DNA of 64,000 nt, taken from the IMG/VR virus record IMGVR_UViG_3300027714_000006, one strand, 5' to 3'. The notes under the pieces are model-generated. The model worked only from the letters and a program-made list of their open reading frames with translations. It made no database searches and was not told the DNA's origin. The translations under genes were made by a program, and so were the position numbers. Below, piece after piece: positions 3-47,060 of the stretch; positions within the stretch are counted from its first letter, which is position 1; each line of letters opens with the position of its first letter. Origin of the DNA: an uncultured virus (IMG/VR IMGVR_UViG_3300027714_000006) (taxonomy: Duplodnaviria > Heunggongvirae > Uroviricota > Caudoviricetes).

Positions 3-3000
3 AACGGGTATGATGATTGGTTTGCTCCAAGTTATAACGAATGGTTAAAATTATGGTTTAATATAGGTCCAGGACAAGCTCTATTATCTCCATTGTATAA
101 TTTAGCCGACTTAGACGACTTAAAACCTTTTTCAGGTTCAACAGACCAACCACCAATATGGATTACTTCTAGTGAACATCCAGCCAACCCAGTATACGAT
201 ACAATTGCTATTGGACTCCCAACTACGTGGGGTACAACAATGCAGGTACTGCAGAAGAATTTCCTATTTATGTGGTTAAGACCTGTTAGGTCATATAATT
301 ACGCAACTTGTTCTGGATATACAACTACTGATTTATCTACTGTACCAATAGGTAATACATGGTTTGACCCATTATCTGGACAATGTTATGAAAGAATAGC
401 GTACCCAGGACCAACAAATTATAACGTCAATGTACCACTAAATGGACCTTATGATGATTGTGAGTGTTGTGAGATAACTCATAAGATAGTAGATGATTGT
501 GTTACAACTACTACAACAATATGGGACCCACCAAAAACAACCACCACAACAACTAATAGACCTACCACAACAACTACTACTCGTCCTCATATTTGTTATG
601 GTATTAAACCTTGTTGTTGTTTAACTGGACAAACATATAGTATAGGTGATACGGGACCAGCGGGTGGTGTTGTCTTCTATCATGATGGTCAAGGGAATTA
701 TTTGGAAGCTTCACCATATGATGTAAATTTATCTAACTATGATTTACCCCAAAATATAATAGCCGCAAACGCGACTGATTCAGCACATACATTTACAATG
801 TGGGGATGTATGAACCTTTATGTTAGTGGAACTTCAAGAGAAATATTCGCGGGTAGTGACAACACATCAAAAATAAATAATGCTTGTACACCAGACATTT
901 ACGGTTACCCGTGTTGTCCTTCATGTACTACTGATGTTAATTGGGCTAGAACAAACCCTTGTAGTGGTAATACAGTACCTTTTACATATGATTGTAAAGA
1001 TAAAAAGGCTGATGCTGGTGGTGGTTATTTGGATTGTACAAAAGAATACATAGGTAATAGTGTTTGGCCAAACCCTGGAAGTAATTTAGACGCTTCTAAT
1101 ATAACTCTTCATAGTGCAGCTCACATATGTTCTACATTCTCATTTAGTGGATACACAGATTGGTACTTACCTACCATTAAAGAAATGAATGAAATGTATA
1201 ATGGACTTGTTGGTTCTACTGGGGGTCAAACTATTGGTTTAGAAAACCCTCTAGCCGCAGGACCACCAAACGAAACTTTTTACTCTACATATAATTTTGC
1301 TGAAGGTGGGTATTACTGGACTTCTAGTGAATGTGATGCCAGTAGGGCGGAATACTTCCCAATGTTTAATGGGTTTAATAATATACATTTAAGTTTAGGT
1401 ATGTCTAATGGACCTAACTACCCTACAGGTACACCATGTTCGGGTAGAGACTCCATATTCCCTGAGTTATTTAGTTCAGAATTACATAGTAAATCTCTCA
1501 TACCTTACCCAGACATAAATAATAATATTATACAAGGTAGCCCAAAATATATTAGACCTGTTAGAAAGTTTACAACCACTAATGAAACTTGTTCTGGTTG
1601 TACTAAAACAGATTTAAGTTTTATGCCTATCGGTCAAGTGTTTTATGATGTGGGGACTAATATGTGTTATGAGAGAATAGAAATACCAGGACCGGACCTT
1701 TACAATATAAGTGTAGTGCCAAGTATATTCTACCAAGATTGTTTTTCTATTGGTGGATGTTTAGATACCCACCATATTGTATGTACGACAACCACAGTCC
1801 CACCAACAACAACCACAACAACAGCATGGTCAGCTACTACAACAACCTCAACAGTCCCACCAACCACAACAACCACAACATGTCAAGGTTTATCAGCTTG
1901 TTGTAAAACAAATAATATTGTGTTTGCTAGGTGGTGTGGTGATTTAACTAATCCAGCTTCAGGTTTAACTTCTTATAATGCTTTCTACGATACTCTTACA
2001 AATGAATGTTGGGAAACAATAGGTAGAGAACAGGGCCCAATAATTAGTATAAATTACCCACCTATACCACTTTATAGTTGTGCCGCGTGTGAGATTCCTT
2101 GTACTACAACCACTACTACCGTATGTCTACCTTTCGCGTTATCTGCTTGTTGTGAAGAGTATGTGTTCTCATTAACAGCTGATTGTAATACGATATTATC
2201 GTATCCAAATGACCAAACCGACATATTAGTAGGTCAAGGACTTTTGGGTACAATTAACGGGGTTCCTGGGTGTTATGTTGTTGTTCCAAGTGAACCGTCA
2301 GCACCAGTAGTTCCGGCTGGATTTACATATCAGTTTTGGTGTACTAATAGTGTCGCGGCAGGGGACCCACCTTGTATATGTTCAGGTTGTACGGAGACTA
2401 ATTTTAGTTGGTCTGTCCCTTGTCCCTCAACTACAACCACTACAACGAAAAGGTGTGCAGATTGTTTCTGTTTATCTGGTGTTTCTCACTTAGAAATATT
2501 TTACACTGGTACATCTACAAGTGTAGAGGATGATGTATGTTTAACATCAGCCGATGGTACGTACTGTTTAGATGAAATACAAGGAGGTAGTGCACCTGAT
2601 TATATCTACGTAAATCAAAATAACGCACCTGGTATTGGACACTACCAGATAGTTCCATTCCAATATGTGAATATACCACCACTTGAAATAGCATCGTGGG
2701 TAGTACAATGGTGTGATAATATTAACTGTGTTGGTGGTAACAACCCATACCAAATAGCCACAGCTTCAACTATTGTTAACACGTCTATACCGGCAAGTAA
2801 CCCAGCATGGGATTTAGGACAGACAGTATGGGAATATATAGACAACCAAATAGGACCTATATCGGTAAATCCTCGTAACGTTGATAAACAAGACCCATGT
2901 TACAATTATTCAGGTACAAGTCATACTGGTTGTTGTACGACATACGGACTATTAACATGTTGTTATGACCCAACTAACCCATATTGGGGGGAAAACCTAT

Positions 3001-4895
3001 GTTGTAATAAAAATCAAGTGTATTATAATACCGTATACGACATACCTAGTTTAGTTAGTGGTACCACAGGTAACCCAAGTATAGTACCAATAGATACTAT
3101 ACACACACCATGTCCTAATATGTGTCTTACTATTGTTGACGAAGCTATCCATACCTACGAACCAGTAGTGGGAGCACCTATGTTAACTTTAAATAACATA
3201 GATGATGTTTGGACAACGGATTATCCTTACGCTTGTATGATTTGTAGAGAAATGTACCAACCTTGTAGTTGTCCAACAACAACAACAACCACGGTACCAC
3301 CAACCACAACAACCACAACAGGACCAGTAACTACAACTACCACATCTTCTGGCCCATTAGGTTTAGAAAATTGTTGCGACCCTACCTTACAATTTGTAGC
3401 CGCAGGGACACTCTATACGATTCTAGCGGGGATGAATTTGGGTGACGCGTTTTATAGTACTATAATGCCATCCGATTATACTGGTTGTTGGAAAATAATA
3501 AATAACCCGGTTGGTATAATACAAACTAATATGTTTGCACCTTCTTTTGTATCATCATCATGTGCAGAATTAAATACAAATACCAATTACACTTTGTGTT
3601 GTCCAGTAACAACGACAACTACAATACCGGTATCCACAACTACTACAACACCATCCCCAACCTTAGGTGTTAGACAATGTTGTCCACCTTATGATGAGTA
3701 TATAGCTACAGGTGTGATATTAACTTGGTTAAACAGTAATTTAATATTAGGTGACGTAGTATATGGTAATATTATTACAGCACCATTCTCACTTCAAGAA
3801 GGGTGTTGGGAGTTCGTCTCAAACGTGAGTGGTCCAGGTGTAGCTGTTTCCATAACACCAGTTAATATCTACTCATCTCTTGTTTATCAGGACCCTTGTA
3901 ATATATGTGTACTTGATGAGGAAGCTCCCTGTACTACCACAACTACAATAGGTGGTACAATAGGTGTTGAGTCTTGTTGTATGGACCCAGTAACTGGGGC
4001 ATTTGACCAATATGTAGCGTTAGGAGCATTTGAAGTGTATCTTAATGGTCTAATCGTTGGTCAAGCGTTTAGTACCCAATTGGTAGATACTACTGGACTC
4101 ATTATAAGGGGATGTTTTAAAGTTATAAATAACCCTATTGGTTTGTCGGTATCAACTTTTACTACACCAGGAATAGTGTATAGTGATTGTTATACCTTAG
4201 ACCAAGCACTCCCATTAGGGTGTTGTGCCCCACTACCAACCACCACAACCACTACAACCCAAGAAGTACAATATGTAAAGCATTGTTGTACTGGGGATGT
4301 TTATGAATTAGTAGGTGACCCTGGTGCTGTATCTGGAGTTGCTGGATTGAACAATGACGATACCTTTAGATTGGTGGTTAGTGGTGGTCAATTTGACGGT
4401 ATGGCTTGTTGTTTCCATAAATGTGTTGGTTGTGCACCTATTGTAGGGACAATTAGTGGTACATTCTTATTCCCTATTTGGCCAGCCGGGTTGACAGACC
4501 AGTGTGACACATGTGAAGACAAAGGACAATCAGTCGGGTGTTGCCCAACCACAACAACAACAACTGTAAATGTAACTGGTAGAGGTTTGGAAGAGTGTTG
4601 TTCTGATACGAACGGAGTATTCCAACAATACGTAGCAATTGGAACACTACTTACTGATATAAATGGTTTAAGTTTAGGTTCCTCACACTTATTTATTATC
4701 AGTGGTGTACCGGTTTGTGCAAGAATAATAAATAGCCCAACCGGACCAACAGTGACAGGGGCCGTACTACTATCACCACCAGCACCAACACCGTGTGCTG
4801 GTCTCCAAGCTTGGTTACCTTATCAGAACCAAGACCCGACACTAAGGATACCATGTTGTCCAGTAACAACGACAACTACATGTACGCCTATTTAA
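3..4895 (+). CDS. Giant Cys-rich/poly-Thr modular protein (5'-truncated by window) with two DUF1566/Lcl-like domains; probable virion appendage protein
   Basis: The frame of ORF 93..4895 is open back to position 3 (NGYDDWFAPSYNEWLKLW...), so the true start lies upstream of the window. It has repeated GLExCC...C..C modules separated by TTTTT linkers. DUF1566-type motifs are IGDTGPAGGVVFY, GYTDWYLPTIKEM, YYWTSSE and IRPVRKF. Confidence 0.75.
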   Translation, partial: NGYDDWFAPSYNEWLKLWFNIGPGQALLSPLYNLADLDDLKPFSGSTDQPPIWITSSEHPANPVYDTIAIGLPTTWGTTMQVLQKNFLFMWLRPVRSYNYATCSGYTTTDLSTVPIGNTWFDPLSGQCYERIAYPGPTNYNVNVPLNGPYDDCECCEITHKIVDDCVTTTTTIWDPPKTTTTTTNRPTTTTTTRPHICYGIKPCCCLTGQTYSIGDTGPAGGVVFYHDGQGNYLEASPYDVNLSNYDLPQNIIAANATDSAHTFTMWGCMNLYVSGTSREIFAGSDNTSKINNACTPDIYGYPCCPSCTTDVNWARTNPCSGNTVPFTYDCKDKKADAGGGYLDCTKEYIGNSVWPNPGSNLDASNITLHSAAHICSTFSFSGYTDWYLPTIKEMNEMYNGLVGSTGGQTIGLENPLAAGPPNETFYSTYNFAEGGYYWTSSECDASRAEYFPMFNGFNNIHLSLGMSNGPNYPTGTPCSGRDSIFPELFSSELHSKSLIPYPDINNNIIQGSPKYIRPVRKFTTTNETCSGCTKTDLSFMPIGQVFYDVGTNMCYERIEIPGPDLYNISVVPSIFYQDCFSIGGCLDTHHIVCTTTTVPPTTTTTTAWSATTTTSTVPPTTTTTTCQGLSACCKTNNIVFARWCGDLTNPASGLTSYNAFYDTLTNECWETIGREQGPIISINYPPIPLYSCAACEIPCTTTTTTVCLPFALSACCEEYVFSLTADCNTILSYPNDQTDILVGQGLLGTINGVPGCYVVVPSEPSAPVVPAGFTYQFWCTNSVAAGDPPCICSGCTETNFSWSVPCPSTTTTTTKRCADCFCLSGVSHLEIFYTGTSTSVEDDVCLTSADGTYCLDEIQGGSAPDYIYVNQNNAPGIGHYQIVPFQYVNIPPLEIASWVVQWCDNINCVGGNNPYQIATASTIVNTSIPASNPAWDLGQTVWEYIDNQIGPISVNPRNVDKQDPCYNYSGTSHTGCCTTYGLLTCCYDPTNPYWGENLCCNKNQVYYNTVYDIPSLVSGTTGNPSIVPIDTIHTPCPNMCLTIVDEAIHTYEPVVGAPMLTLNNIDDVWTTDYPYACMICREMYQPCSCPTTTTTTVPPTTTTTTGPVTTTTTSSGPLGLENCCDPTLQFVAAGTLYTILAGMNLGDAFYSTIMPSDYTGCWKIINNPVGIIQTNMFAPSFVSSSCAELNTNTNYTLCCPVTTTTTIPVSTTTTTPSPTLGVRQCCPPYDEYIATGVILTWLNSNLILGDVVYGNIITAPFSLQEGCWEFVSNVSGPGVAVSITPVNIYSSLVYQDPCNICVLDEEAPCTTTTTIGGTIGVESCCMDPVTGAFDQYVALGAFEVYLNGLIVGQAFSTQLVDTTGLIIRGCFKVINNPIGLSVSTFTTPGIVYSDCYTLDQALPLGCCAPLPTTTTTTTQEVQYVKHCCTGDVYELVGDPGAVSGVAGLNNDDTFRLVVSGGQFDGMACCFHKCVGCAPIVGTISGTFLFPIWPAGLTDQCDTCEDKGQSVGCCPTTTTTTVNVTGRGLEECCSDTNGVFQQYVAIGTLLTDINGLSLGSSHLFIISGVPVCARIINSPTGPTVTGAVLLSPPAPTPCAGLQAWLPYQNQDPTLRIPCCPVTTTTTCTPI
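3597..4880 (+). repeat. Exact 27-nt direct repeat at module/linker junctions (3597-3623 and 4854-4880)
   Basis: TGTTGTCCAGTAACAACGACAACTACA at both sites. Confidence 0.85.
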
Positions 4896-4907
4896 TCATG
4901 ATGTGGG

Positions 4908-4914
4908 TATTTAT
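4908..4914 (+). promoter_or_regulatory. Putative late-promoter motif TATTTAT (representative of about 15 copies)
   Basis: Also at 10867, 12829, 15791, 27464(-), 29262, 31155, 34647, 37343, 38073, 39585, 41749, 53687, 58203 and 61943, each shortly upstream of a start codon. Confidence 0.75.
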
Positions 4915-4930
4915 TGTTAAATAATAAACT

Positions 4931-7900
4931 ATGGGATATAAAAAATATAGAGCTTGTTTTACTAGCGAACCTTTTAGTGTACCAGTCCCTTTCGATTGTA
5001 ATATTGGTAAATCCGGTTCGCCTCCAGGAAATACAATAGCTAACAATGAACATTTTCAGAATTATTATTACCAACAAAGTGCAGGGCATCAAATAGTACC
5101 TGGGGACTTTATTAGACTATACTCAACTCCATATCCACAATTTTGGACTTGTTTTGAGTATATAGGGGACTTCGCAACACCAGAAGCTATACATGTTGAA
5201 TATCTTGGTGGTCATTCTTTACAAAATTCTGGTTGGTTTATTGAACCATATGGTGATTGTGATGCGTGTGAAACCCAACCATCCGTTTTCGGACTCAATC
5301 ATTCTTGGCGTTATTGTGATAATTCACTCGCTTTTAATCCAGTACCAGTAGTTCCTACACCAGGGGCCCCGCCTTTAGGTTCATGTTTTTTACCAAATAC
5401 TGATACAAATAATCAGGCATTCCATAACCAGTTAACTGCTGCTATAGGGCCTATAAGTCAGGGTGATGTTATTCAATTATCTGATGGTACATGTATGTAC
5501 TATGAGGGTGACAGTCCCAGACCAACCAGTTATGATATAGATGTAAGTAATAATCCGGGTAGTGGTGATTGGCATACTGGGTATGTTGGAGGACAGTGTG
5601 GAAACACTTTTGGAACACCACCAACAAGAGGACTACTTGGTAGTGTTGTCGATTGTCAACAGTGCCCTATTATCACTATCACTACAACTGGAATACAACC
5701 CCTAACAACTACTACCACAACAGTAGCTCCTATAACCACAACTACAACCACATGTTATAATTGTTGTACCACTACAACTACTGGTGACCCTTGTGTGACA
5801 TGTGGGATAGAAAGTTGTTGTGTGGGTACTGGTGTACCAGTACAATATGGGGCCACAGGTAATTTATTACTATTACTTAATTCACTTAATTGTGATGATA
5901 ATTATGCCTTCCAAATACCAAACTTATTAGTGTCAGGTGGGATAGTACAAAATGAATGTTGGAAACCATTATGTAACCCTATTGTTGGTATACCTGTCGC
6001 TAATATGGTGGAGACCCAATCGGACCTAACATCAAACGGACTAATAAATATGCTAGGTTGTAATGCGTTATCTATAGCACTTATATCAGCTAATGGTATA
6101 CCTTGTTGTCCAGGGCAAACAACCACGTCCACCACGTTACCTGGTCAAACAACCACAACCACTACTAGTACCCCAACCACAACAACCACTACCGGACCAC
6201 TAACAACAACTACAACTACAGTGTGGTACGAATGCATAACACCACCATTAGCAACTATCACTAATGGTTCCTCCTGTGATAGTTTAACCCTAAAACCACA
6301 TGCTTCTATCTCCATTATTGGAGCGTGTGAATATTTAATGGATGAACAAATAAATGGGAATATCCCCATTAATGTAACCTGGGGCAGCTTTTATCATGAA
6401 ACCGGTACTCCACCGAATACCTTGGCAAACCAATGTGTGTCTGTTCCATCAACAAACCCATACGCACAGGGAGGTATGGGTTATAGTAAAGCTACACATA
6501 TTATAACTAACGCTGCAAATGTGCTTTATGTCGGTAGTGGTGCCATCAACAACTGGCAATCGTTTATAGATTATCTTAATAGTATCACACCAGGAGTTTT
6601 TACTTATATCGATTCTAGATTCACGGTTGTTATGTTAATACAACAGGAGTCAAATAACATGTCGGAGTCATGGAATACCTATGGGGGACCTTGTACATGT
6701 AACCAACCACCTTGTTTTTGTCAACCATGTTTCACACCTGGGGTCACACCTTGTATATTTAATGATTTTAGTATTTGTGATATCGCTGCTAACGCAATAC
6801 CATGTTGTCAACCAGTAACAACAACTTCCACAACACCAGGACCAACAACAACCACAACTACGACACTAGCGATAGGTGTGGAACTTTGTTGTCCACCTTA
6901 TGACCAATATATTATCCCTAGTGGTAATTTCTTATATAGTTTAATACAAGGGCTTAGTATTGGTAGTGCTCATATATTCGAGTTGACTTTACCTGACGGT
7001 TCGGTAATACAAACTTGTGCTGAAGTAATCAATAATCCATCACCCATAAATGTAATAAATAATGGGTTTTTGTGGTTATCACCTACTACCGATATGGGTT
7101 GTATTGATTTTAATATCGCTATAGTGGCAGGAACGTATTATTTTCCAGGTATGGAATTAGGGTGTTGTCCTCCAGATGATTGGCACGAATGTATTACACC
7201 ACCACCACTTGTACCCGGTATAGACGCAAACTGGTGTGGGGACCAATTCCCAACAACATACGTTATACCAGCCGGGATTAATGGTGGAAATACACCATAC
7301 CAAAATAGAGTTGAGGCTGTTAACCATATTACCCAGAATTTTGGTGCTGCAGCACTATACATGTTCTATCACTATATAAACCCAACAGCCACACTATCAC
7401 TAGCTGGTTGTGAAAATTTAAGTTTGTTGTATAGTGGTTTAGGTAGACATGAAAAGGTGGGTGAGATACAATTAAGTAATGCTAATATTTCCTACGTCTT
7501 CTCAGGTCAAACAACCACATTATCTACTTGGGCTATGCTTATAACGATTCTAAACGGTATAAACCAAACTAATGGATGGGCTCAAGATTTCGTAACGTCA
7601 GATACTTGGGACCAAGTTATTGTAAGAATGACTAACAATGCCGCTGGAGATACGTTATTAATAAATGTTGTAGAATGTGGTTGCTTTAACCCTTGTTTTT
7701 GTCAACCCTGTGTACCACCTGCATTAAATTGTGTCTATAGTAGTTACGTGTTATGTGATGTAGCAGCTCAAGGAAACCCATGTTGTCTACCAGTAACAAC
7801 AACCACAACAACAATTATTTGTGACAGACTGGGGTTAGAAGATTGTTGTTCACCATACAACCAATATACGGTCACATTGGGTAGTCCTTTATATGTTATA

Positions 7901-10864: not shown

Positions 10865-13160
10865 ACTATTTATCACTAATGAATAAAATAATATAAAAAT
10901 ATGTCTTGGTACTGTCCCACAGAATTAACTTTAGCTAACCCAATACAAACACCTTATCCGTGTTGTGTCTTTGGGATAGCTCCAATTAATAATACAATTT
11001 ATGCTACACAACAATTGTGTCAAGATAATACGTCTTGTTGTAACAATGCCAACCAACCGGGTACAAGTAACTTAGACTCTTGTTGTGGTGGTTTAGACCA
11101 AGGTGAACCATGTAATTACTCTTATTGGTTAAGTCTATTACCATCAGCCAGAGACGCGATATGTCAATACTGTACCTCTTCAACACCAGGTCCACCTTGT
11201 GATTCGGAGGTTTCTTTATATTGTAGATGTTGTGATGGATGCAACCAAACTACAACAACCACAACAACAATAGTGGTAAATAGGGGTGTAAAAATGTGTC
11301 CACAATTTGGGACACTAGAATTTATGGCAACAGCAACAGGTGGACCAACCTTATATGCTATAGTATGGTCATACCCTATTGGTACAATCTTAGAATTGGA
11401 TGTGACTTATGTTAGCTTTTTCGATGGTAGTATTACTCACTATAGAGCTTGTTGGGAGATTATAGAATTTACAGCGAATTATGTATGTGCTGAAGCTGAC
11501 GGTACACTTATAAACCCTACCCCGGTAACGTGTAAGAGCTGTACTATTCCACCTGGTGATGTGTGTACCACTACAACCCTAACAACACAACCACCTAACC
11601 CATATTGGTGTGTGGAAAAGTGTTGTGACGGTTCAATCTATAGAGTAGAAGTGAACTTCCCGTATGATTGGACGGCTATCATATCTGGTATGGTTCCAGG
11701 AACGGTGTTTTTGGCTCAATCATGGAATAATTTAAATGGTACTGGGTTACAAGAATGTTATAAACTAATTGGTCCACCATGTAGTGGTTCTCCTTTAATT
11801 ACTTTGTCCCCACCAGTGTGGTCCACCCAACCAGGAGCTATTGATGGTTGTAATCTTTGTCTGACACAATATGAATGTAACCAAGTCGGGGATATATACC
11901 AATGGTTCCCACCAACCTTACCACCACCAGCTGGACAACCGGTTGATACTGGGATGAATGGTGATTTATGTCTTTGTACCACAACCTCAACCACGTCAAG
12001 TATATACGGTTGTACAGACCCAACAGCATGTAACTATGACCCAACCGCAATTATTGATGATGGTTCATGTATTTTACCTGACGGTTGTACAGATAGTCAA
12101 GCATGTAACTATGACCCAAATGCGATATGTGATGATGGTTCATGTGTAGCACTTGTATACGGTTGTATGGATGGTGGAAATTGTGTAGGGACAAATTGTC
12201 CAAATGCGGGCAGTTGTACTAACCCCACTGGTTGGTTTACGTCACCTTACCCTGGTTGTGAAGCATATAACTACTATGCTGGTGCTCAAATAGATTTAGG
12301 AACTTGTTTTGGTTATTGTAATTGTTTAGACCCAAATGGTGCTAATTATAATTTCACTGGAGAAATAGGTGTACCACCACCATCGTTACCCACTATGATA
12401 AATGGGCTTTATATTGATTGTGCTGGTGCATTACAAATGAATATTAATACTTTGCAATGGAATGGGAATGTTGGGGATACTTCTTGTTGTGGTGCTATAG
12501 TGACAACCACTACAACAGTATGTGTATTTGGATGTACAGACGCTACCTCATTCAATTATGACCCATCAGCTACTTGTGAGGACGGTTCTTGTATAGCTTT
12601 TATTTATGGTTGTATGGATGGTGGTTGTTGTACGACCGGTATAGCACCAGACCCACTTGTTGGTGATACTTGTACTGGTGGGTTCTTTGGTGTATATGGG
12701 TTGTGTCCAATGGGTGGGCCAAATGCACCTTCATATAATTCACCGATAGGTCCTCCTGGAGCATCGAATTATTATCCTGGAGCTAATTTAGATGATGGGA
12801 GTTGTTTGTAAAATAAGATTAATTAAAGTATTTATATAAAGATATGGCATGTAATTTAACAGGTATAACAATTAGTATGGGTGGTGGGGTATCACCTTAT
12901 AGTGTAAGTCTTTGTAACCAAGGATGTGAAACTGGGTGTAATAATGTAGCTACAACAAATTACGATTGTGTGTATTTTACAGCATGTTGTGGTACATACG
13001 GATTACAAATAATAGATGCTTCTGGATGTACAAGCTGTTCTGATTTGATAATCGATACTTGTTTTACTACTACTACGACCACAACCGCAGCTCCAGCTAC
13101 TACGACAACTACAACACAACCAGGTACCACAACGACAACAACATACTCACCACCAACAAC
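8765..13160 (+). repeat. Exact 26-nt linker repeat shared between two different genes (8765-8790 and 13135-13160)
   Basis: ACAACAACATACTCACCACCAACAAC at both sites. Confidence 0.85.
10901..12811 (+). CDS. Cys-rich/poly-Thr protein with GCTD...NYD...DDGSC repeats
   Basis: Repeats GCTDPTACNYDPTAIIDDGSC, GCTDSQACNYDPNAICDDGSC and GCTDATSFNYDPSATCEDGSC; TATTTAT at 10867. Confidence 0.75.
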   Translation: MSWYCPTELTLANPIQTPYPCCVFGIAPINNTIYATQQLCQDNTSCCNNANQPGTSNLDSCCGGLDQGEPCNYSYWLSLLPSARDAICQYCTSSTPGPPCDSEVSLYCRCCDGCNQTTTTTTTIVVNRGVKMCPQFGTLEFMATATGGPTLYAIVWSYPIGTILELDVTYVSFFDGSITHYRACWEIIEFTANYVCAEADGTLINPTPVTCKSCTIPPGDVCTTTTLTTQPPNPYWCVEKCCDGSIYRVEVNFPYDWTAIISGMVPGTVFLAQSWNNLNGTGLQECYKLIGPPCSGSPLITLSPPVWSTQPGAIDGCNLCLTQYECNQVGDIYQWFPPTLPPPAGQPVDTGMNGDLCLCTTTSTTSSIYGCTDPTACNYDPTAIIDDGSCILPDGCTDSQACNYDPNAICDDGSCVALVYGCMDGGNCVGTNCPNAGSCTNPTGWFTSPYPGCEAYNYYAGAQIDLGTCFGYCNCLDPNGANYNFTGEIGVPPPSLPTMINGLYIDCAGALQMNINTLQWNGNVGDTSCCGAIVTTTTTVCVFGCTDATSFNYDPSATCEDGSCIAFIYGCMDGGCCTTGIAPDPLVGDTCTGGFFGVYGLCPMGGPNAPSYNSPIGPPGASNYYPGANLDDGSCL

Positions 13161-14766
13161 TTCTACATTATTTAGACCATGTGATGGTCAAAGTGGGTGT
13201 ACACCTGGAAATATTATAACACCATCAATCGTAGGGGGTGGTGGTAGAATACAAATGACTATAAACGTCCAACCAACAGTCAGAGTTAAAGGAGCCACAA
13301 TATCTAGTGACCCTATATATTCTGGTTATACCGACTCTAACGGAATTGAACACCAATCCTATCATGATTATGTGGTAAACAAATATTCTGGTACATTCAC
13401 TTCCACAGGTCTAACATCTATGTACGTGGGACGAAAAATTACAAATAATGTGGATACTGAAATTTATTGTATTACTTTAAATGTAATAGAAAAGAAAAAC
13501 CTAAGTGAATTAAGTAATAGTGAATTATTGCCGTCAGAACTAGGAGGTATCCCAACAGATATATCAACTTCAAGTGAGATAGTATTACATTCTACATGTG
13601 TGTATGATAAAGCTTTAATACTAGCTGAAAGTACACAATGTAGTCCTAATTATGGTCCAGGTAATCTAGGTTATTGCAGTGGTAATATAACATCTATTAG
13701 TGTTCCTGCGTGTTCAGACCATGGTGTCGCTTATTATACACCTAGTAGTAACCAAAGAGCTATTCCTGGTGGTGTTAGTATTGGTACAACCTTAGTCCCA
13801 CCATCTATGGGTGGTTCGGGTAGTGGTACTTTAGGGTGGTTAGCCTACGATAATACCGATGATAAAATAGTTGGTGTGACTAATAATCATGTTATAGGTT
13901 ATAATTTTGCTTCAGCTGGGCTAAACGCGGACCCAATTAATTATCCTGGTATAGATTGTGGTTCTGCCGCTGGTGCAACTGCTAATGGTGGGTTACAAGG
14001 AGCAAATTGGTCAACAGGGTACGTAACACAACAACCTAGTTATCCTGATAATGGAAATTCAAGTGCGGGAGTACAGATGGGTTCAGTGAAAAGATTCCAC
14101 CCACTATGTTATAACTACACACAAAATAAAGTAGACGCTGCACTTATAGAATTAACAGAAGAGCCAACAACAACTATATTAGGTCTAGCTTGGGGACCAT
14201 ACCAACACGCTACAACAGCAGAAGTAAATGGGTTGGTGGGGAGTTATGTTTATAAAGTAGGTAGAAGTAGTGGTAACATCTTAAGTGTGAGTTATCCTGA
14301 CGTAGTAATAATAACAGTTAATGCTGCTAATATAAAATTAGGTAACCCTAATTTTATGTACGACCAACAAATATTATTCAAATCAGCTGGTGATGGTGAC
14401 CCATCTCCTGGTGTCGGAGGTGATTCCGGTGCAGCGATTTTATGTTGTGTAGGTGGAGCATTAAAAATAGTCGGAATTAATTTTGCTGGTAATTACCCAA
14501 GGTATATGTGTTGTGGAGCTTCATCTGGAGATATAAATAGTATTTGGCCTAATGGGTTTATTGGTATTGCCAATCGTATAGATGAGGTAGAATCTAAATT
14601 AAACATTTCTTCATGGGATGGTTCTTTAGTGGTAGCTCCTACCTCATCTAATTATATAAAAGTTAATGACAAGTGTTACTATAATGCAGGAAGTACTACC
14701 AGACCTATACAACACACTATAGACGCTTCTTACACGGATTGTGCGTCATGTAATTCTTCTATTTGA
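12844..14766 (+). CDS. Cys/Thr-rich protein with Nal1-like trypsin-fold serine protease
   Basis: Catalytic triad motifs GTLG...TNNHV (His 13888), VDAAL (Asp 14134) and GGDSGA (Ser 14425); Nal1-type N-domain VGRK...IEKK...LPSELGGIPTD; TATTTAT at 12829. Confidence 0.8.
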   Translation: MACNLTGITISMGGGVSPYSVSLCNQGCETGCNNVATTNYDCVYFTACCGTYGLQIIDASGCTSCSDLIIDTCFTTTTTTTAAPATTTTTTQPGTTTTTTYSPPTTSTLFRPCDGQSGCTPGNIITPSIVGGGGRIQMTINVQPTVRVKGATISSDPIYSGYTDSNGIEHQSYHDYVVNKYSGTFTSTGLTSMYVGRKITNNVDTEIYCITLNVIEKKNLSELSNSELLPSELGGIPTDISTSSEIVLHSTCVYDKALILAESTQCSPNYGPGNLGYCSGNITSISVPACSDHGVAYYTPSSNQRAIPGGVSIGTTLVPPSMGGSGSGTLGWLAYDNTDDKIVGVTNNHVIGYNFASAGLNADPINYPGIDCGSAAGATANGGLQGANWSTGYVTQQPSYPDNGNSSAGVQMGSVKRFHPLCYNYTQNKVDAALIELTEEPTTTILGLAWGPYQHATTAEVNGLVGSYVYKVGRSSGNILSVSYPDVVIITVNAANIKLGNPNFMYDQQILFKSAGDGDPSPGVGGDSGAAILCCVGGALKIVGINFAGNYPRYMCCGASSGDINSIWPNGFIGIANRIDEVESKLNISSWDGSLVVAPTSSNYIKVNDKCYYNAGSTTRPIQHTIDASYTDCASCNSSI

Positions 14767-14817
14767 TAATCCATTTACTATAGGTAAAAACAATTTAATT
14801 TTATATAAAAAATATAT

Positions 14818-15789
14818 ATGATTTTTATCTGTGCACAACCAGACGTACCATACTTTCATTGGCAAATAAGAATGTTATTCTTTAATTTTGAGAAATTTGG
14901 GATTATTAAAAAATGTAGAGCTATATTTGGTTTAATGAATGGAGCTCAAGAACCAAGTGAAGGGTTAAAAAAGTTACTAAGAGACTACCCTGATAATATT
15001 CATTTTTATAAAGATACTAGAACAAATAGGTCGTACATCCCAAGTATTAAACCACACTTAGTAAAACACTATTTAAAGGAATACCCACAAGATGGTAAGT
15101 GTATATTCTTAACTGATTCAGATATTTTATTTAGGAAACTACCGGATTTTGGGTCAATGTTACTTGATGATATAAGTTATGTTTCTGAATGTCCTGGTTA
15201 CATAGATTATAATTACATAAAAGGTTGTTGTGATAGGTATAAATCACAGCACCCACAACTAGGTGATATCGAATTATTGGAAGATATGGCAGATAAGGTT
15301 GGTGTATCAGTGGATGTAATAAAACAAAATAATAGTAAATCTGGGGGAGCACAATATCTTATAAAGGATACTGATTATCATTTTTGGCATAAGGTAGATA
15401 TTGATTGTAATAGGATATATGACGCTACTAAGAAGTTTGGGGACAAACACCCAATTCCCGCTCACATACAATTCTGGACTGCGGAAATGTGGTCCATATT
15501 ATGGAATATGTGGTATTTTGAAAAAGAAACAGCTTTACACCCTGAATTGGCTTTTAGTTGGGCCACTGACCCAGTTTCTAGATATGAAGAAAAAAACATA
15601 TTTCATTTAGCTGGAATACTAGATGAGATGAAAGGAGAAAAGTTTTATAAGGGTGAATTTATTAATAAATGTCCATTCACAGAGTACAAAAATAACCCAG
15701 AAAAGTTCCAAAATTACTCACCAGATTTCGGTGCAATAAAATATGTAGAAGAAATAAAGCGATTCGTTGAGTCGAAACGACCTTACTGA
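14818..15789 (+). CDS. GT-A fold glycosyltransferase, HPAT/SERGT1-like (putative protein O-glycosyltransferase)
   Basis: Motifs YIPSIKPHLVKHYL, IFLTDSDILF (DxD), GGAQYLI, WTAEMWS and IFHLAG occur in the order seen in peptidyl-Ser galactosyltransferase and Hyp arabinosyltransferase families. Confidence 0.7.
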   Translation: MIFICAQPDVPYFHWQIRMLFFNFEKFGIIKKCRAIFGLMNGAQEPSEGLKKLLRDYPDNIHFYKDTRTNRSYIPSIKPHLVKHYLKEYPQDGKCIFLTDSDILFRKLPDFGSMLLDDISYVSECPGYIDYNYIKGCCDRYKSQHPQLGDIELLEDMADKVGVSVDVIKQNNSKSGGAQYLIKDTDYHFWHKVDIDCNRIYDATKKFGDKHPIPAHIQFWTAEMWSILWNMWYFEKETALHPELAFSWATDPVSRYEEKNIFHLAGILDEMKGEKFYKGEFINKCPFTEYKNNPEKFQNYSPDFGAIKYVEEIKRFVESKRPY

Positions 15790-15818
15790 TTATTTATATA
15801 TAAATAAATAATTACTTT

Positions 15819-18800
15819 ATGGCCTATACAGGTAACGTACATGTTTCACTATATGCTAATCCAGATTACTGTAATCCGGGGGCTATATGGGCATCAGACC
15901 AAGAAAACCCACTACAACCAGGGGGTTCACTGACTTATATTTACAATAATGCTAGTAACGCATTTGGGTACCAACCACCATTTTTCGATGAAGGATATTA
16001 CTTTATTGGTGATACAATAAAAATGTCTGGTGATACTGGAGGTGATGGTGGACTATATGTTTCCGCGGCAAATTGGAATACACTTAGGTTCGGTCAACCA
16101 GCACACTCCCAATTTGACCACGCAATACGTACCATGCATTGGTTAAAGGCCTGTGAGTATACTAATGGTTCCGCGTTTACCCACACGTTATCTGGGGTTA
16201 CAAGTGGTGGTACCGGACCATATACTTACGAATGGGAACAACAAGCTTACCCATATACTGGAACTACTTTTAATCTAGCTACATTTGGTACCGCATACAC
16301 TTCTAGTGATTCTTGGGGTGGTTACAGTGGTCAATCATACCAATTTGTTGGTACAGGGGATACCGTGTACGGATTTTTTGATAATACATACGCACAAACT
16401 TACAAAGGACCATCAAGGGTCAAATTAACTGTTACCGATTTTACTGGGGGTACAGCTAGTACGTTTATGTCCTTAAGTTCTGGATGTACAACAATGCCAT
16501 GGTCAGCGGTAACAACAACCACAACAACCTCACCTCCGATAACAGGATATTGTTATACGATGAGAAATTGTTCAGCGAACGGTAATGTCGTACAATTTGA
16601 CCAGATTTTATCAGCATCCACACTATTAGGTGGGAGTTATTACGAGGTCTTATCACCACCAAACTCTAATGGTATAGAACACTGTAGACAAATTATTAGT
16701 GGTTGTGGGCAAACTATAGGTTCTAACATCCAAGGGTTGGTGATTAATGGTCCTTTTAGTGGGTGCTGTGACCCTACATCTAGTGGGGTGTGTTCGGATT
16801 TGTGTCCAACAACTACAACCACGACATACAACCCCCACCTCACCACAACAACAAGTTCTACCACATTAGTACCAACAACCACAACTACAACAACATGTAA
16901 ATTATTGTATAAGGTAGAACCATGTGTAAGTACAGGTGGGACGATTACAGTCGTTCTAACGGGTTCATCTTGTTTAGACATAACATTATCCGCTGACAGC
17001 TATTATCGTTTAGAGTCGGGATGGCCTGACTGTTCTACGGATTGTTATAGGGTAATTAGTGGGACAACCGGTTGGGGAGGTAGCCAAGCTACCATAATTG
17101 CTGGTGTATTTAGTTCTTGTACTCATTGTGACCAAGGATGGATAGGGGAAACAACAACGACAACAACCGCTTGGCCACCATTTACAACCACAACAACTTC
17201 ACCAGTTACAGAAACTACAACTTGTAGTTATTATGAATCTGACGTTACAGTGCATGTGGTAACACAAAGTGCAAGGACAGCTAATGACGTAATGAATATA
17301 TGGTCCATACTACCAAGTGGATTAACACATAGTCCGTACGATTATGACTGTCGTTTAAAATTAAAACCAGTTACTGGTTATAGTAGTTATAATATTAATT
17401 ACAGTATAACTAGTGCTACTGGTAGTTGTGAAGGTTATTATAATGAATTAAATGGTGGGTTCTATCAAGGATTCTACAAATTACAAGGTTACCCATATGA
17501 GGTACTACCAACAAGAGTGGAGTGTGGATGGACGGTGGAAACCATTATTAGGCCTAGGTGTAATAATATATGTGATGGGTACACATTAAATGATTTGTTC
17601 CCAGAAAATAAAGGGATATTCTTTTATATGGGTACAAGAGCTGAGAATAAATTTAGGATACCCTATTCTGGAGAAAATTGTATAGAAACTTGTGAACCGT
17701 CTTGTTCCGGTGATTCTATAACACTACAAACTGCGGGATGTAGTACCCATACTGATAACTGTGGGAACGTACATGAAGATTGTGTTTCAGCTTCAACGTA
17801 CCCTTACTATGTTGATTGTTGTAGTAATAATTTTGCTCTAATGTTAAGTGGTGATTGTGAAACAGGTTATAGGGTGGGATATAGGGCTTTATATTTCTCT
17901 GGTGGTTGTGTTGTTACGGGAACTACCGACGAAACAATACATTACGATAGATGTGGTCACCCATATAAAGTAGGTTCTGGTAACCCTAATTGTGGTACAG
18001 CTTTTACCTACATAACAGCATGTACTGTAGTAAATCGTTTTAGTGATGATATTATATGTGATTTTACCGGACAAACAGAAGCACCTTGGCTTTACGTTAG
18101 TGCTGTATTTGAAAGAGACTATTGTTGGGATTGTTGTGATTTAGAAAATAAAGGTGGTGTAAATGATTTAATACACGAACCGATACCTGGAGTAGATTCG
18201 GTATTTGGGTATAATGATATAGAACTACCTACCTATTTAAATTTTACAAAAAAATGGGTACAGGAAAAGAAATTTAGAATGGGTACATTAACAATTTATG
18301 TTAATGGTAGACCAGTTTTCGTGGATAGAAATTTTGAAGAAGTGATACCAAGACAACTTAATACAGCAAATCAATTACAAGTTGGGGTACCATTTAATAT
18401 TAGTTGGGGTGGTGGTTCACAAGGTTTATTAGAATCTTTTAGGTTTGATGGTTGTGATGGTTGTGATATAATTGTGGATTCCGAGGTAGATTGTATAACA
18501 GAAAATTTTGCAGGGACATTTATGGGGGCAATATCACAGTTTAGGTATTATTTAAAACCTTTAGGTGTGGATGAAATACAACATAATTTCTTAGTAGAAA
18601 AAGATAGATATGGTCTTATAGACTGTCAGTGTGGTGAAACACCGTGTAACCAAGGAAGAGCGGTATACTATACTGAAGGTGATTCTGTTGACGTAATGTT
18701 AAACTTTCCAGTACCAACAACAGTCTTAGATTTTGATGGATTTGACACTTATATAGACGTTACGAAGCATGAAGGTATTAAATTTAAATCGATTTTAGTG

Positions 18801-18974
18801 GACAATGTAAGTGCATTTACCATCAAGAGATACCCCAATTCGGTAATTACTGATGTTATAGTAGAAACTTTACCGTTCTGCGTTGGGCCAAACGATATAG
18901 TGCAAATAATTATTAATAGAGTAGACACCAATAAAAAAGCGAGTGCTACATTAATAGGTAACCTATATAAGTAA
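15819..18974 (+). CDS. Cys/Thr-rich virion protein with C-terminal LamG/ConA-like domain
   Basis: N-terminal PKD/SprB-like GGTGPYTYEW; poly-Thr-linked Cys modules; C-terminal TIYVNG...FMGAISQFRYYLKPL...EIQHNF; TATTTAT at 15791. Confidence 0.65.
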   Translation: MAYTGNVHVSLYANPDYCNPGAIWASDQENPLQPGGSLTYIYNNASNAFGYQPPFFDEGYYFIGDTIKMSGDTGGDGGLYVSAANWNTLRFGQPAHSQFDHAIRTMHWLKACEYTNGSAFTHTLSGVTSGGTGPYTYEWEQQAYPYTGTTFNLATFGTAYTSSDSWGGYSGQSYQFVGTGDTVYGFFDNTYAQTYKGPSRVKLTVTDFTGGTASTFMSLSSGCTTMPWSAVTTTTTTSPPITGYCYTMRNCSANGNVVQFDQILSASTLLGGSYYEVLSPPNSNGIEHCRQIISGCGQTIGSNIQGLVINGPFSGCCDPTSSGVCSDLCPTTTTTTYNPHLTTTTSSTTLVPTTTTTTTCKLLYKVEPCVSTGGTITVVLTGSSCLDITLSADSYYRLESGWPDCSTDCYRVISGTTGWGGSQATIIAGVFSSCTHCDQGWIGETTTTTTAWPPFTTTTTSPVTETTTCSYYESDVTVHVVTQSARTANDVMNIWSILPSGLTHSPYDYDCRLKLKPVTGYSSYNINYSITSATGSCEGYYNELNGGFYQGFYKLQGYPYEVLPTRVECGWTVETIIRPRCNNICDGYTLNDLFPENKGIFFYMGTRAENKFRIPYSGENCIETCEPSCSGDSITLQTAGCSTHTDNCGNVHEDCVSASTYPYYVDCCSNNFALMLSGDCETGYRVGYRALYFSGGCVVTGTTDETIHYDRCGHPYKVGSGNPNCGTAFTYITACTVVNRFSDDIICDFTGQTEAPWLYVSAVFERDYCWDCCDLENKGGVNDLIHEPIPGVDSVFGYNDIELPTYLNFTKKWVQEKKFRMGTLTIYVNGRPVFVDRNFEEVIPRQLNTANQLQVGVPFNISWGGGSQGLLESFRFDGCDGCDIIVDSEVDCITENFAGTFMGAISQFRYYLKPLGVDEIQHNFLVEKDRYGLIDCQCGETPCNQGRAVYYTEGDSVDVMLNFPVPTTVLDFDGFDTYIDVTKHEGIKFKSILVDNVSAFTIKRYPNSVITDVIVETLPFCVGPNDIVQIIINRVDTNKKASATLIGNLYK

Positions 18975-46740: not shown

Positions 46741-47060
46741 TGTCACAATACTACAATAGATACGCACAATTTTCCATCAATGGACAATCACAAACAGTGC
46801 CATTTGTTACTTTACCATCTAAAACTACCGATAAGAAGGTTATATATAAAATGGGAAAAAGTAGAATGGATAAATTTAGTGAAGAATATTACGGTTCCCC
46901 ATACTTTGGTTGGTTGATAATGGCAGCTAACCCTACATACGGTGGGTTAGAGTGGAATATTCCTGACGGAAGAATATTGATTATTCCTTATCCTCTAGTA
47001 GCTTCTTTACAAGACTATAAGCAGGCAGTCGAAAACCACTTCTTCTTTTATGGCAGATGA
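46740..47060 (+). CDS. Baseplate wedge protein (gp53/tail X, LysM-like)
   Basis: RMDKFSEEYYGSPYFGWLIMAANP...IPDGRILIIP. Confidence 0.8.
   Translation: MSQYYNRYAQFSINGQSQTVPFVTLPSKTTDKKVIYKMGKSRMDKFSEEYYGSPYFGWLIMAANPTYGGLEWNIPDGRILIIPYPLVASLQDYKQAVENHFFFYGR

What the first reader, a model, noticed from the sequence alone, without database searches (positions are those of the whole stretch)
3..18974. Candidate phage-encoded mucin-like glycoprotein coat: poly-Thr virion proteins flanking their own protein O-glycosyltransferase
Seen: five large genes (at least 1600, 1977, 636, 640 and 1051 aa) built from Cys-rich modules joined by dozens of T5-T9 or PTTTTTT linkers. The four whose starts are visible lack signal peptides and follow the late-type TATTTAT motif. 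The only gene interrupting the array is a 323-aa DxD glycosyltransferase. Known: its motifs (YxPxxKP, DxD, GG, WxxEM) match the HPAT/SERGT1 group, which in plants glycosylates hydroxyl residues of extensin-type low-complexity proteins. Virion glycosylation by phage-encoded GTs is known in some mycobacteriophages. Inference: this GT O-glycosylates the Thr tracts in the cytoplasm, giving stiff mucin-like stalks that display binding domains on the virion for adhesion, shielding or protease resistance.
Basis: partly seen in the sequence, partly recalled or inferred. Interest (0 to 1): 0.9.

Follow-up and report, generated by a model that had tools for sequence, protein, structure and literature searches.

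The report
Phage sugar-transferase with poly-threonine fibre proteins
A giant marine phage devotes a tenth of its genome to huge cysteine-rich proteins joined by runs of threonine, with one sugar-adding enzyme among them whose relatives in unrelated phages occur only beside threonine-tagged particle proteins, so the phage probably sugar-coats these proteins, though no sugar has been measured.

Summary
The window lies in a roughly 298-kb marine T4-like myophage. Five window ORFs carry 45 runs of four or more Thr and 4-9% Cys. The other 30 window ORFs carry none. The first ORF is really 4,512 aa, and two more Cys-rich genes lie upstream. The full cluster is 29.7 kb with 75 Thr runs, T4-T7 with T6 commonest. 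It holds every poly-Thr tract of the genome.

ORF 14818-15789 is a soluble DxD enzyme with a confident GT-A fold, nearest to GT8-type transferases. It belongs to the unnamed phage family phrog_4417.

My tests tie this family to poly-Thr tracts:
- 62 of 79 related loci have poly-Thr ORFs, against 0 of 120 controls.
- All 8 cultured phages checked show Thr tags on structural-module proteins.
- Among 27 homologous Enterococcus-phage tail loci, 12 of 12 with the enzyme have Thr-tailed tail and capsid-like proteins. None of the 15 without it do.

Protein O-glycosylation of Thr tracts is therefore the best reading. It is untested biochemically. Virion location is inferred, and membership of HPAT/SERGT1 is not shown.

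A 17-kb phage glycan-synthesis island lies 13.5 kb away.

This scan already found the same enzyme/poly-Thr pairing on at least 12 other genomes.

The parts
3..4895 (+). C-terminal 1,630 aa of a 4,512-aa Cys-rich modular protein (C4512). It has 18 T-runs in the window part and 45 in all. It contains an Lcl_C/DUF1566-like domain and four copies of a ~95-aa six-Cys module.
4931..10864 (+). 1,977-aa poly-Thr protein (D1977) with 15 T-runs. Eight of its segments fall in the six-Cys module's BLAST cluster. It has a weak beta-propeller-like stretch (aa 1518-1749), the only part with homologues in related loci.
10901..12811 (+). 636-aa poly-Thr protein (E636), 9.4% Cys, with 3 T-runs and repeated Cys motifs.
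12844..14766 (+). 640-aa poly-Thr protein (F640). It has an N-terminal Cys module and three T-runs. Its C-terminal half matches a PHROG protease family and carries S1-type triad-like motifs (TNNHV, DAALIEL, GDSGAA; the motif reading is recalled).
   Evidence: (phrog_20754, E 9.5e-13)
14818..15789 (+). 323-aa soluble GT-A glycosyltransferase with invariant D100-x-D102. It belongs to the unnamed phage family phrog_4417 and is the proposed priming Thr O-glycosyltransferase.
15819..18974 (+). 1,051-aa poly-Thr protein (G1051) with 6 T-runs. Its C-terminal 580 aa is a conserved phage domain with at least 819 homologues. A ConA/LamG-like nature is a lead only.
4908..4914 (+). TATTTAT promoter-like motif 23 nt before the D1977 start. 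The same motif lies at 10867-10873, 12829-12835 and 15791-15797, and before the sheath, tube and gp25 genes and two large tail-region ORFs.

Best explanation
ORF 14818-15789 is a cytoplasmic, metal-dependent (DxD) GT-A glycosyltransferase. It transfers a sugar from a nucleotide-sugar to the hydroxyl groups of the short poly-Thr runs (mostly T5-T7, often after Pro). These runs link the Cys-rich modules of seven neighbouring giant proteins, which hold 427 Thr in 75 runs.

The proteins have no signal peptides. They would be glycosylated in the infected cell, mounted on the particle as fibres or decoration, and released at lysis. Their many cysteines can then form disulfides in oxidising sea water. 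The glycosylated linkers would act as extended, protease-resistant, hydrated spacers. These spacers display variable modules: a protease-like domain, a DUF1566-like domain, a lectin-like candidate, and a six-Cys module with no solved-structure match.

Shown here: the sequence features, the GT-A fold, and the co-variation of this enzyme family with poly-Thr tags.
Inferred: the Thr acceptor, the priming role, the virion location and the biological role.
For: Fold:
- AF2 model pLDDT 94.1.
- VIA-align: glycogenin-1 Z 14.8 (rmsd 3.5, 226 aligned), LgtC 14.0, Skp1 AgtA 13.5, UGGT 13.4, GlyE 12.2, PBCV-1 A64R 11.3.
- Foldseek top hits are UGGT catalytic domains, E 1.9e-6.
- D100 and D102 are invariant in 40 homologues and follow strand 95-98.

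Co-variation:
- 62 of 79 IMG/VR loci with a homologue (the phage's own locus dropped) have an ORF >=150 aa with >=2 T4+ runs, against 0 of 120 control loci (one enzyme-bearing control dropped; Fisher 3e-36, not corrected for relatedness).
- The nearest such ORF is the adjacent gene in 18 loci and 1.4-2.3 kb away in 40 more.
- By the looser T5+ criterion the counts are 76 of 79 against 9 of 120.
- Matched test: of 27 loci with homologues of the phiFL1A major tail protein, 12 carry the enzyme. All 12 have Thr-tailed tail and capsid-like proteins. 15 lack the enzyme and 0 of these have Thr tails. Both states occur in the 82-87% and the 65-68% identity classes.
- 8 of 8 cultured phages checked carry Thr tags on structural-module proteins (major capsid, major tail, portal-position or small ORFs) in the module that holds the enzyme gene. 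Hosts are Enterococcus (2), Lactobacillus (2), Staphylococcus, Arcanobacterium, Clostridium and Chryseobacterium.

This genome:
- All 57 coding-strand (ACN)6 matches in the 297,623-bp record fall in the 27-kb stretch 175,304-202,392 around the enzyme gene.
- Thr codons in the runs are mixed: ACA 132, ACC 61, ACT 51, ACG 12.
- The partner proteins have no homologues in 79 related loci, apart from one D1977 segment found in 14. The enzyme stays at about 50% identity.

Virion context:
- TATTTAT lies upstream of the four poly-Thr genes and of the sheath, tube and gp25 genes. It is absent upstream of PolB, gp32, UvsX and RNR.
- In the relative L032, genes flanking the enzyme gene hit a Hoc-like head-decoration family.
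Against: - No biochemical or proteomic datum exists. No sugar, donor or acceptor has been measured.
- The fold cannot name the acceptor. LgtC, a lipo-oligosaccharide enzyme, is tied with glycogenin within Z<1.
- The reverse test is weak. Only 7 of 123 poly-Thr (T9) loci carry the enzyme, against 1 of 121 acidic-tract controls (Fisher p=0.066). Many poly-Thr proteins therefore exist without this enzyme, although 5 of the 7 have it starting within about 45 bases of, or overlapping, the end of the poly-Thr ORF.
- 17 of 79 related loci fail the strict poly-Thr criterion, and 3 of 79 fail the loose one.
- The enzyme gene itself lacks the TATTTAT motif. DnaB and a HAD/PNK gene carry it, and its window-wide count equals chance.
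- No PHROG or Pfam structural annotation places any of the seven proteins in the virion.
- The IMG/VR loci are related phages, so the counts overstate the number of independent events.
Confidence: 0.65

Rival explanations
1. The enzyme glycosylates the poly-Thr proteins, but these are not particle components. They are released at lysis as free glycoproteins (protease, adhesins) that condition the surroundings or act as decoys.
For: None of the seven proteins matches a known structural family. F640 carries a protease-like domain. The six-Cys module is unknown elsewhere: 10 of 1.84 billion representatives.
Against: In the 8 cultured phages checked, the tagged proteins include major capsid or major tail proteins in six, and small structural-module ORFs in Semele and MA9V-3. 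The promoter-like motif is shared with the sheath, tube and gp25 genes. Neighbours in a relative hit a Hoc-like decoration family. Proteins of 1,000-4,500 aa are more typical of phage fibres than of soluble effectors (general knowledge).
Confidence: 0.15
2. The poly-Thr runs are glycosylated, but this enzyme is not the priming transferase. It extends a glycan started by another phage or host enzyme, or it acts on only some tracts.
For: The genome has at least seven further ORFs with glycosyltransferase-family matches, plus sugar-nucleotide enzymes, 13.5 kb away. Several GT8-type relatives, such as GlyE and AgtA, extend glycans that are already on proteins (recalled).
Against: In the roughly 36-40-kb siphophages, phiFL1A and iLp84, this family travels with the Thr tags. 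No other gene annotated as a glycosyltransferase appears in the 13-28-kb stretches I read. The matched gain and loss involves this one gene.
Confidence: 0.1
3. The enzyme modifies something other than protein, such as host surface polysaccharide, lipo-oligosaccharide or teichoic acid, or phage DNA. The poly-Thr runs are then plain flexible linkers that lie next to it by chance.
For: LgtC is among the tied best structural matches. Phage glycosyltransferases for DNA and for serotype conversion are well known, as summarised in passages I read in PMC12619734.
Against: 12 of 12 against 0 of 15 co-variation with Thr tails among close tail-protein homologues. 62 of 79 against 0 of 120. The enzyme gene lies directly behind a Thr-tagged ORF in several unrelated cultured phages (phiFL1A, iLp84, MA9V-3, Semele, phiCTP1). 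All poly-Thr tracts of a 298-kb genome cluster around the gene.
Confidence: 0.07

Closest known systems
Virion O-glycosylation of mycobacteriophages (Che8, Corndog, Myrna; Freeman et al. 2023, Cell Host Microbe). The paper is not held. I know it from passages of PMC12619734 and from recall.
   Same: Phage-encoded glycosyltransferases modify the phage's own structural proteins in the cytoplasm. The glycans sit on exposed tails of capsid and tail-tube subunits.
   Different: The Che8 enzymes are gp108 (GT2 plus methyltransferase) and gp110 (GT25-like). They do not match the profile of this family (scores below 0; Pfam) and lie far from the structural genes. The Che8 capsid and tail-tube C-termini are not poly-Thr. 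Here the acceptors are internal poly-Thr linkers of giant fibre-like proteins. The tube and sheath have no runs, and no (ACN)6 tract lies in the capsid-gene region.
Cytoplasmic glycosylation of serine-rich repeat adhesins in Gram-positive bacteria (GtfA/B, then GT8-type GlyE, GlyD and others)
   Same: Soluble enzymes O-glycosylate long Ser/Thr-rich low-complexity regions of large adhesins inside the cell, before they reach the surface. GlyE is a structural neighbour (Z 12.2, rmsd 3.8, 219 aligned).
   Different: The acceptor here is short pure Thr runs between folded Cys-rich modules, not hundreds of SASA-type repeats. There is no accessory Sec export. The enzyme is phage-encoded and shows no detectable sequence relation. 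The details of the SRRP pathway are recalled, not tested.
Animal mucins and mucin-type O-glycosylation
   Same: Pro/Thr-rich tracts are flanked by Cys-rich domains. There are many potential O-glycosites (427 Thr in runs). The same genome encodes GT11 fucosyltransferase-like, GT7C galactosyltransferase-like and sulfotransferase-like genes.
   Different: The tracts are 4-7 residues long, not long tandem repeats. No GT27 (ppGalNAc-T) relation was seen among the listed structural matches. Glycosylation would occur in a bacterial cytoplasm.
Plant and algal HPAT (GT95, Pfam PF23452) and SERGT1 (GT96), the extensin O-glycosyltransferases
   Same: Both are DxD GT-A-type enzymes acting on hydroxyl groups of low-complexity structural proteins (recalled). 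One Atlas neighbour cluster of the phage family carries PF23452 on 10% of its members. Two earlier notes of this scan call the relation distant.
   Different: The Pfam HPAT model gave no match at E<=10 in 52 family members, and none in 5 phage records. The phage enzyme starts directly with strand 1 of the fold and has no membrane anchor. The acceptor would be Thr, not Hyp or Ser.
Glycosylated fibrils and capsids of giant viruses (Mimivirus fibrils; chlorovirus Vp54 with A64R)
   Same: The virus encodes its own sugar-nucleotide pathway and glycosyltransferases for its particle surface. A64R is a structural neighbour (Z 11.3).
   Different: Those are viruses of eukaryotes with other acceptor sites. 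Here it is a tailed phage with a Thr-run tag. The giant-virus facts are recalled, plus the search listing of PMC9614988.

Membership tests
phrog_4417 (unnamed phage protein family) | Full-length match to the family profile | tested here: met
   E 1.2e-65, residues 1-295 on profile positions 1-276 of 293. 1,478 homologues at E<=0.001. 75 phage records by tblastn.
GT-A fold, DxD-dependent glycosyltransferases | Rossmann-like GT-A fold with a DxD motif after a central strand | tested here: met
   pLDDT 94.1. Z 14.8-12.2 to GT8-type and UGGT structures. D100 and D102 are invariant and follow strand 95-98.
CAZy GT8 / Pfam Glyco_transf_8 (PF01501) | Sequence match to the family model | tested here: not met
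   No Pfam hit at E<=10 in 40 members. PF01501 found nothing in G001 at E<=0.01. The likeness is structural only.
CAZy GT8 / Pfam Glyco_transf_8 (PF01501) | Retaining mechanism, Mn2+ dependence | not testable with these tools
   Needs an enzyme assay.
HPAT / SERGT1 (GT95, GT96; Pfam PF23452) | Match to the Pfam HPAT model | tested here: not met
   0 of 52 members at E<=10. 0 of 5 records (the controls were also silent, so that search is weak).
HPAT / SERGT1 (GT95, GT96; Pfam PF23452) | Remote homology (profile-profile) | tested here: inconclusive
   The only link is the Atlas lead: PF23452 on 10% of one neighbour cluster. No HPAT sequences were available for hhalign.
Mycobacteriophage virion glycosylation (Che8 type) | Homologous glycosyltransferases | tested here: not met
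   Che8 gp108 and gp110 score below 0 against the family profile, and gp109 gives no hit. Their Pfam families differ.
Mycobacteriophage virion glycosylation (Che8 type) | Glycans demonstrated on virion proteins | not testable with these tools
   Needs mass spectrometry of virions.
Poly-Thr-tag / phrog_4417 pairing (as noted earlier in this scan) | The enzyme gene co-occurs with, and usually adjoins, genes with T>=5 runs. Tags are absent from close relatives that lack the enzyme. | tested here: met
   In this genome all tracts cluster around the enzyme gene.
T4-like contractile-tailed jumbo phage (context) | Sheath, gp19 tube, gp25 and gp6 baseplate, gp23 capsid, gp32, UvsX | tested here: met
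   The nearest record is 297,623 bp and 93% complete.

The most novel reading that the evidence does not exclude
This marine jumbo phage makes a true mucin-like glycoprotein coat entirely with its own genes. The phrog_4417 enzyme primes 427 Thr in 75 linkers of seven fibre proteins. A 17-kb phage island then builds fucosylated, aminated, methylated or sulfated O-glycans on them. The island holds two GDP-mannose dehydratases, an aminotransferase, epimerases, GT2, GT11, GT7C-like and TOD1-like transferases, a methyltransferase and a sulfotransferase. This would be a bacterial-virus counterpart of the glycosylated fibril layer of giant viruses. The poly-Thr coding linkers would also serve as joints for shuffling the displayed modules.
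Probability: 0.25. Interest if true: 0.9.

Novelty: new variant of a known kind. Interest (0 to 1): 0.8.

Why it matters
Glycosylation of phage particles is documented, in the papers I could search, only for a few mycobacteriophages. There it affects antibody recognition.

A short, portable poly-Thr tag read by one dedicated and widespread phage enzyme family would make virion glycosylation a general phage trait, not a curiosity. The family has at least 1,478 homologues and infects hosts from Bacillota, Actinomycetota and Bacteroidota, alongside marine jumbo phages. That bears on phage therapy (immune clearance, stability), phage-mucus and phage-particle adhesion in the sea, and glyco-engineering (a genetically encodable O-glycosylation tag).

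This window is the extreme case: 10% of a 298-kb genome, proteins up to 4,512 aa, and a full sugar-synthesis island. The idea can be tested directly in cultured Enterococcus, Lactobacillus and Staphylococcus phages that carry the same enzyme next to Thr-tailed capsid and tail proteins.

Tried and rejected
- HPAT/SERGT1 membership: no Pfam PF23452 hit. I could not obtain HPAT sequences for a profile-profile test.
- Sequence searches of the enzyme profile against PDB, Pfam and NCBIfam: nothing.
- Genome-contig scan: only 2 MAG contigs carry a relative.
- Megablast of 24 kb of the window against the phage collection: no match.
- Reverse enrichment (poly-Thr to enzyme): 7 of 123 against 1 of 121, not significant on counts alone.
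- TATTTAT as a window-wide over-represented word: rejected, 40 against 42.7 expected.
- Six-Cys module model against 48,161 solved chains: best Z 3.0, no clear match.
- G1051 C-domain profile against PDB and Pfam: nothing. F640 against PDB: nothing meaningful.
- Expression: no RNA holder listed among 23 runs.
- Laying contigs of 4 marine runs showed identical fragments of the phage. It also showed pile-ups and joints at poly-Thr and Cys-motif repeats. These may come from other organisms or from assembly, so I draw nothing from them.
- Literature searches found no paper on this enzyme family or on poly-Thr tags in phages. Freeman et al. 2023 is not held.
- Complex prediction was not used, because an enzyme-substrate pair is a poor case for it.
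- In one search, two references (L085:1-2790 and L085:2800-4335) were arbitrary stretches inside the giant ORF, not separate genes. Their only hit repeats the phrog_4245 match.
Full report
**What the window is.** Pfam and PHROG scans of 35 ORFs show a contractile-tailed phage: sheath, gp19-type tube, baseplate hub, gp25 and gp6-like wedge, family-B DNA polymerase, gp32, UvsX, DnaB and class II RNR. GC is 32-40%. The nearest held record, G001, shares all sampled words with the window. It is 297,623 bp and 93% complete by CheckV, so this is a jumbo phage. Window base 1 is G001 base 192,470, in reverse orientation. Near-identical DNA occurs in marine water, sediment and sponge metagenomes from 14 studies. 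Pieces with no differences were laid from four of those runs. Upstream regions are A/T-rich with few Shine-Dalgarno-like sequences. This hints at a Bacteroidota host but is only an inference.

**The observation.** The five large ones hold 18, 15, 3, 3 and 6 runs of four or more Thr, and 4.1-9.4% Cys. The glycosyltransferase candidate and the 29 other ORFs hold no run.

In G001 the first ORF is complete at 4,512 aa. It is preceded by a 280-aa and a 399-aa Cys-rich ORF. The cluster therefore has seven poly-Thr or Cys-rich proteins totalling 9,495 aa, plus the enzyme. It spans 29.7 kb, a tenth of the genome.

It contains 75 Thr runs: 4 of T4, 22 of T5, 42 of T6 and 7 of T7. These hold 427 Thr, and 29 runs follow a Pro. 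Shuffles of the same proteins give about 2.7 runs in total. The codons are mixed, so the runs are kept at the protein level. A search for (ACN)6 in the whole record found 57 matches on the coding strand, all between 175,304 and 202,392. There were none on the other strand, and 2 and 8 for the reversed control pattern. Every poly-Thr tract of this genome therefore lies around the one enzyme gene. The N-termini are not hydrophobic.

**The enzyme.** ORF 14818-15789 has no Pfam or NCBIfam match. It matches PHROG 4417, of unknown function, at E 1.2e-65. It has at least 1,478 homologues, all unnamed.

The AlphaFold model is confident (pLDDT 94.1, pTM 0.91). It begins directly with a beta strand, so there is no membrane anchor. 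Foldseek and VIA-align place it in the GT-A fold. The nearest structures are glycogenin (Z 14.8), LgtC (14.0), the Skp1 galactosyltransferase AgtA (13.5), the UGGT catalytic domain (13.4), LARGE1 (13.0), GlyE of the pneumococcal serine-rich-repeat pathway (12.2) and chlorovirus A64R (11.3). Among predicted viral structures, the close matches are uncharacterised phage proteins, including Lactobacillus phage LP65 Orf49. GT8-annotated proteins follow. The top rows are tied, so the fold does not tell a protein acceptor from a glycolipid one.

The Pfam HPAT model gave nothing for 52 members or 5 records. The only trace of that relation is an Atlas neighbour cluster with HPAT on 10% of its members. 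I therefore do not file the enzyme under HPAT/SERGT1.

**Does the enzyme travel with poly-Thr?** I ran five tests.

1. Forward test. Of 79 IMG/VR loci with a homologue at 46-51% identity (the phage's own contig left out), 62 have an ORF of at least 150 aa with two or more T4+ runs within 10 kb. None of 120 control loci do. The controls were fetched with an acidic-tract pattern, and the one control that carried the enzyme was left out. That control also has a poly-Thr ORF. The nearest poly-Thr ORF is the adjacent gene in 18 loci and 1.4-2.3 kb away in 40 more. With a looser criterion, any T5+ run, the counts are 76 of 79 against 9 of 120. These loci are related phages, so the p-value overstates independence.

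2. Reverse test. Of 123 loci fetched by a (ACN)9 pattern, 7 carry the enzyme. In 5 of these the enzyme ORF starts within about 45 bases of, or overlaps, the end of the poly-Thr ORF. Of 121 controls, 1 carries it. This is weak on counts (p=0.066) but striking in geometry.

3. Cultured phages. All 8 that I opened carry Thr tags on structural-module proteins, in the module that holds the enzyme gene:
   - Enterococcus phiFL1A: capsid and tail-tube proteins end in T5-T7 runs, and the enzyme gene follows the tail-tube gene.
   - Lactobacillus iLp84: capsid, tail-tube and a 129-aa poly-Thr ORF.
   - Enterococcus nattely, Staphylococcus SA2 and Arcanobacterium TPWB06: the tail tube and the annotated head-protease ORF carry T6-T9 runs. 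SA2 and TPWB06 also have a poly-Thr ORF overlapping the end of the tail-tube gene.
   - Lactobacillus myophage Semele: two small Thr-repeat ORFs directly upstream.
   - Clostridium phiCTP1: three Thr-tailed structural-module ORFs.
   - Chryseobacterium MA9V-3: two ORFs with long Thr/Ser tracts directly upstream.

4. Matched test. I fetched 27 IMG/VR loci encoding homologues (65-100% identity) of the globular part of the phiFL1A tail-tube protein. Twelve have the enzyme gene immediately downstream. All twelve have Thr-tailed tail-tube and capsid-like proteins. Fifteen have no enzyme gene within 6 kb, and none of these has a Thr tail. Both states occur within the 82-87% and the 65-68% identity classes, so the pair was gained or lost together more than once.

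5. Partner variability. The partner proteins of the window have no detectable homologues in the 79 related loci, except one D1977 segment found in 14. What stays constant next to the enzyme is the Thr run, not the protein.

**The partner proteins.** Splitting at the linkers gives 42 folded segments. Twelve segments, four in C4512 and eight in D1977, cluster by BLAST around a roughly 95-aa module with six conserved Cys (CC...C...C...CC). Its model is confident (pLDDT 91.4), but the best match to 48,161 solved chains is Z 3.0. The module is almost private to this phage group: 10 of 1.84 billion representatives, and 6 proteins in the 5.8-billion set.

Other segments:
- An Lcl_C/DUF1566-like domain.
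- A PHROG protease match with S1-type triad-like motifs in F640.
- A weak beta-propeller signal in D1977.
- A 580-aa C-terminal domain of G1051. It has at least 819 homologues on phage contigs of up to 298 kb, no known family, and a ConA/LamG lead only.

The N-terminus of the first cluster gene (A399) resembles the consensus N-terminus of that G1051 family. In relatives, one protein carries both ends.

**Are they on the particle?** This is not shown. Four points favour it:
- TATTTAT lies 12-46 nt upstream of the four poly-Thr genes, the sheath, tube and gp25 genes, and two large tail-region ORFs. It is absent upstream of PolB, gp32, UvsX, exonuclease and RNR. DnaB and a HAD/PNK gene are exceptions, and the window-wide count is at chance.
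- The proteins have no signal peptides, and their high Cys content suits an extracellular life.
- In the cultured phages, the tagged proteins include major capsid and tail proteins.
- In relative L032, two of the genes flanking the enzyme gene hit a Hoc-like head-decoration family.

**A glycan island.** 13.5 kb beyond the cluster, on the same strand, G001 carries a 17-kb block. It encodes two GDP-mannose 4,6-dehydratases, a DegT-type aminotransferase, further epimerase/dehydratases, a methyltransferase, an asparagine-synthase-like amidotransferase and a sulfotransferase. Its transferases are of GT2 (two), TOD1/MUCI70, GT11, GT7C-like and GT2_5 types. The gp23-type capsid gene follows. Five related jumbo records all have GT2 genes, and three have a GDP-mannose-dehydratase-like gene. 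Whether these sugars end up on the Thr tracts or on host structures is open.

**Comparison with the known.** The Che8 system, the documented case of phage virion glycosylation, uses GT2-type and GT25-like enzymes that do not match this family. Its capsid and tail tails are not poly-Thr. The closest mechanistic analogue is the cytoplasmic glycosylation of serine-rich-repeat adhesins. The closest architectural analogue is a mucin. I found no paper on this family or on poly-Thr tags in phages in seven full-text searches. The library lacks most subscription journals.

Earlier follow-ups of this scan reached the same pairing on at least 12 other genomes. My tests were run before I read them, and they agree.

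**Verdict.** The enzyme is a GT-A, GT8-like, DxD glycosyltransferase of a large unnamed phage family. Its association with poly-Thr tags is strong and repeated in unrelated lineages. O-glycosylation of the Thr linkers is the best explanation (about 0.65 for the full statement, higher for the enzyme-tag link alone). Particle location and function are inferred. HPAT/SERGT1 membership is not supported.

Noticed in passing
G001 216,693-233,729 (outside the window; loci L361:13293-17917 and L362:620-12729, minus strand): A 17-kb phage glycan-synthesis island, followed by a gp23-type capsid gene. It encodes 2 GDP-mannose dehydratases, a DegT aminotransferase, epimerases, a methyltransferase, an AsnB-like amidotransferase, a sulfotransferase, and GT2 (two), TOD1/MUCI70-like, GT11, GT7C-like and GT2_5 transferases.
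   Followed up: partly
L360:14537-15736 (-) and window 15819-18974: The N-terminus of the first cluster gene (A399) resembles the consensus N-terminus of the protein family whose C-terminal domain sits in the last cluster gene (G1051). In relatives, one protein has both ends.
   Followed up: no
window 11900-12700 (E636): Repeats of a Cys motif (G-C-T/M-D..A-C-N-Y-D..D-D-G-S-C). Contigs of four marine metagenomes pile up and join irregularly here. The motif therefore seems widespread in marine DNA.
   Followed up: no
window 3270-3345, 4546-4566, 6149-6220, 7796-7813, 16890-17155: Metagenome contigs join one poly-Thr coding linker to another (tables 5 and 5c). This could be assembly chimeras, other organisms, or real module shuffling at the linkers.
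   Followed up: no
window 3345-4865, 5783-10522: A ~95-aa six-Cys module (twelve segments cluster around it). Its model is confident (pLDDT 91.4), with no solved-structure match above Z 3.0 and only 10 relatives among 1.84 billion representatives.
   Followed up: yes
window 47050-53667: A 2,205-aa ORF with an N-acetylmuramoyl-L-alanine amidase domain near its C-terminus (aa 1927-2046). It sits among baseplate genes and is likely a virion-borne lysin or tape-measure-like protein.
   Followed up: no
window 25461-26330 (-): A 289-aa ORF with a Peptidase_S74 'chaperone of endosialidase' domain, typical of tail fibres or spikes. It lies on the opposite strand between the DNA polymerase and a SNF2 helicase.
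   Followed up: no
L332:19649-19930 and L365:18921-19187: In Staphylococcus phage SA2 and Arcanobacterium phage TPWB06, a poly-Thr ORF overlaps the 3' end of the major tail protein gene in another frame. It may be a frameshift extension of the tail-tube protein.
   Followed up: no
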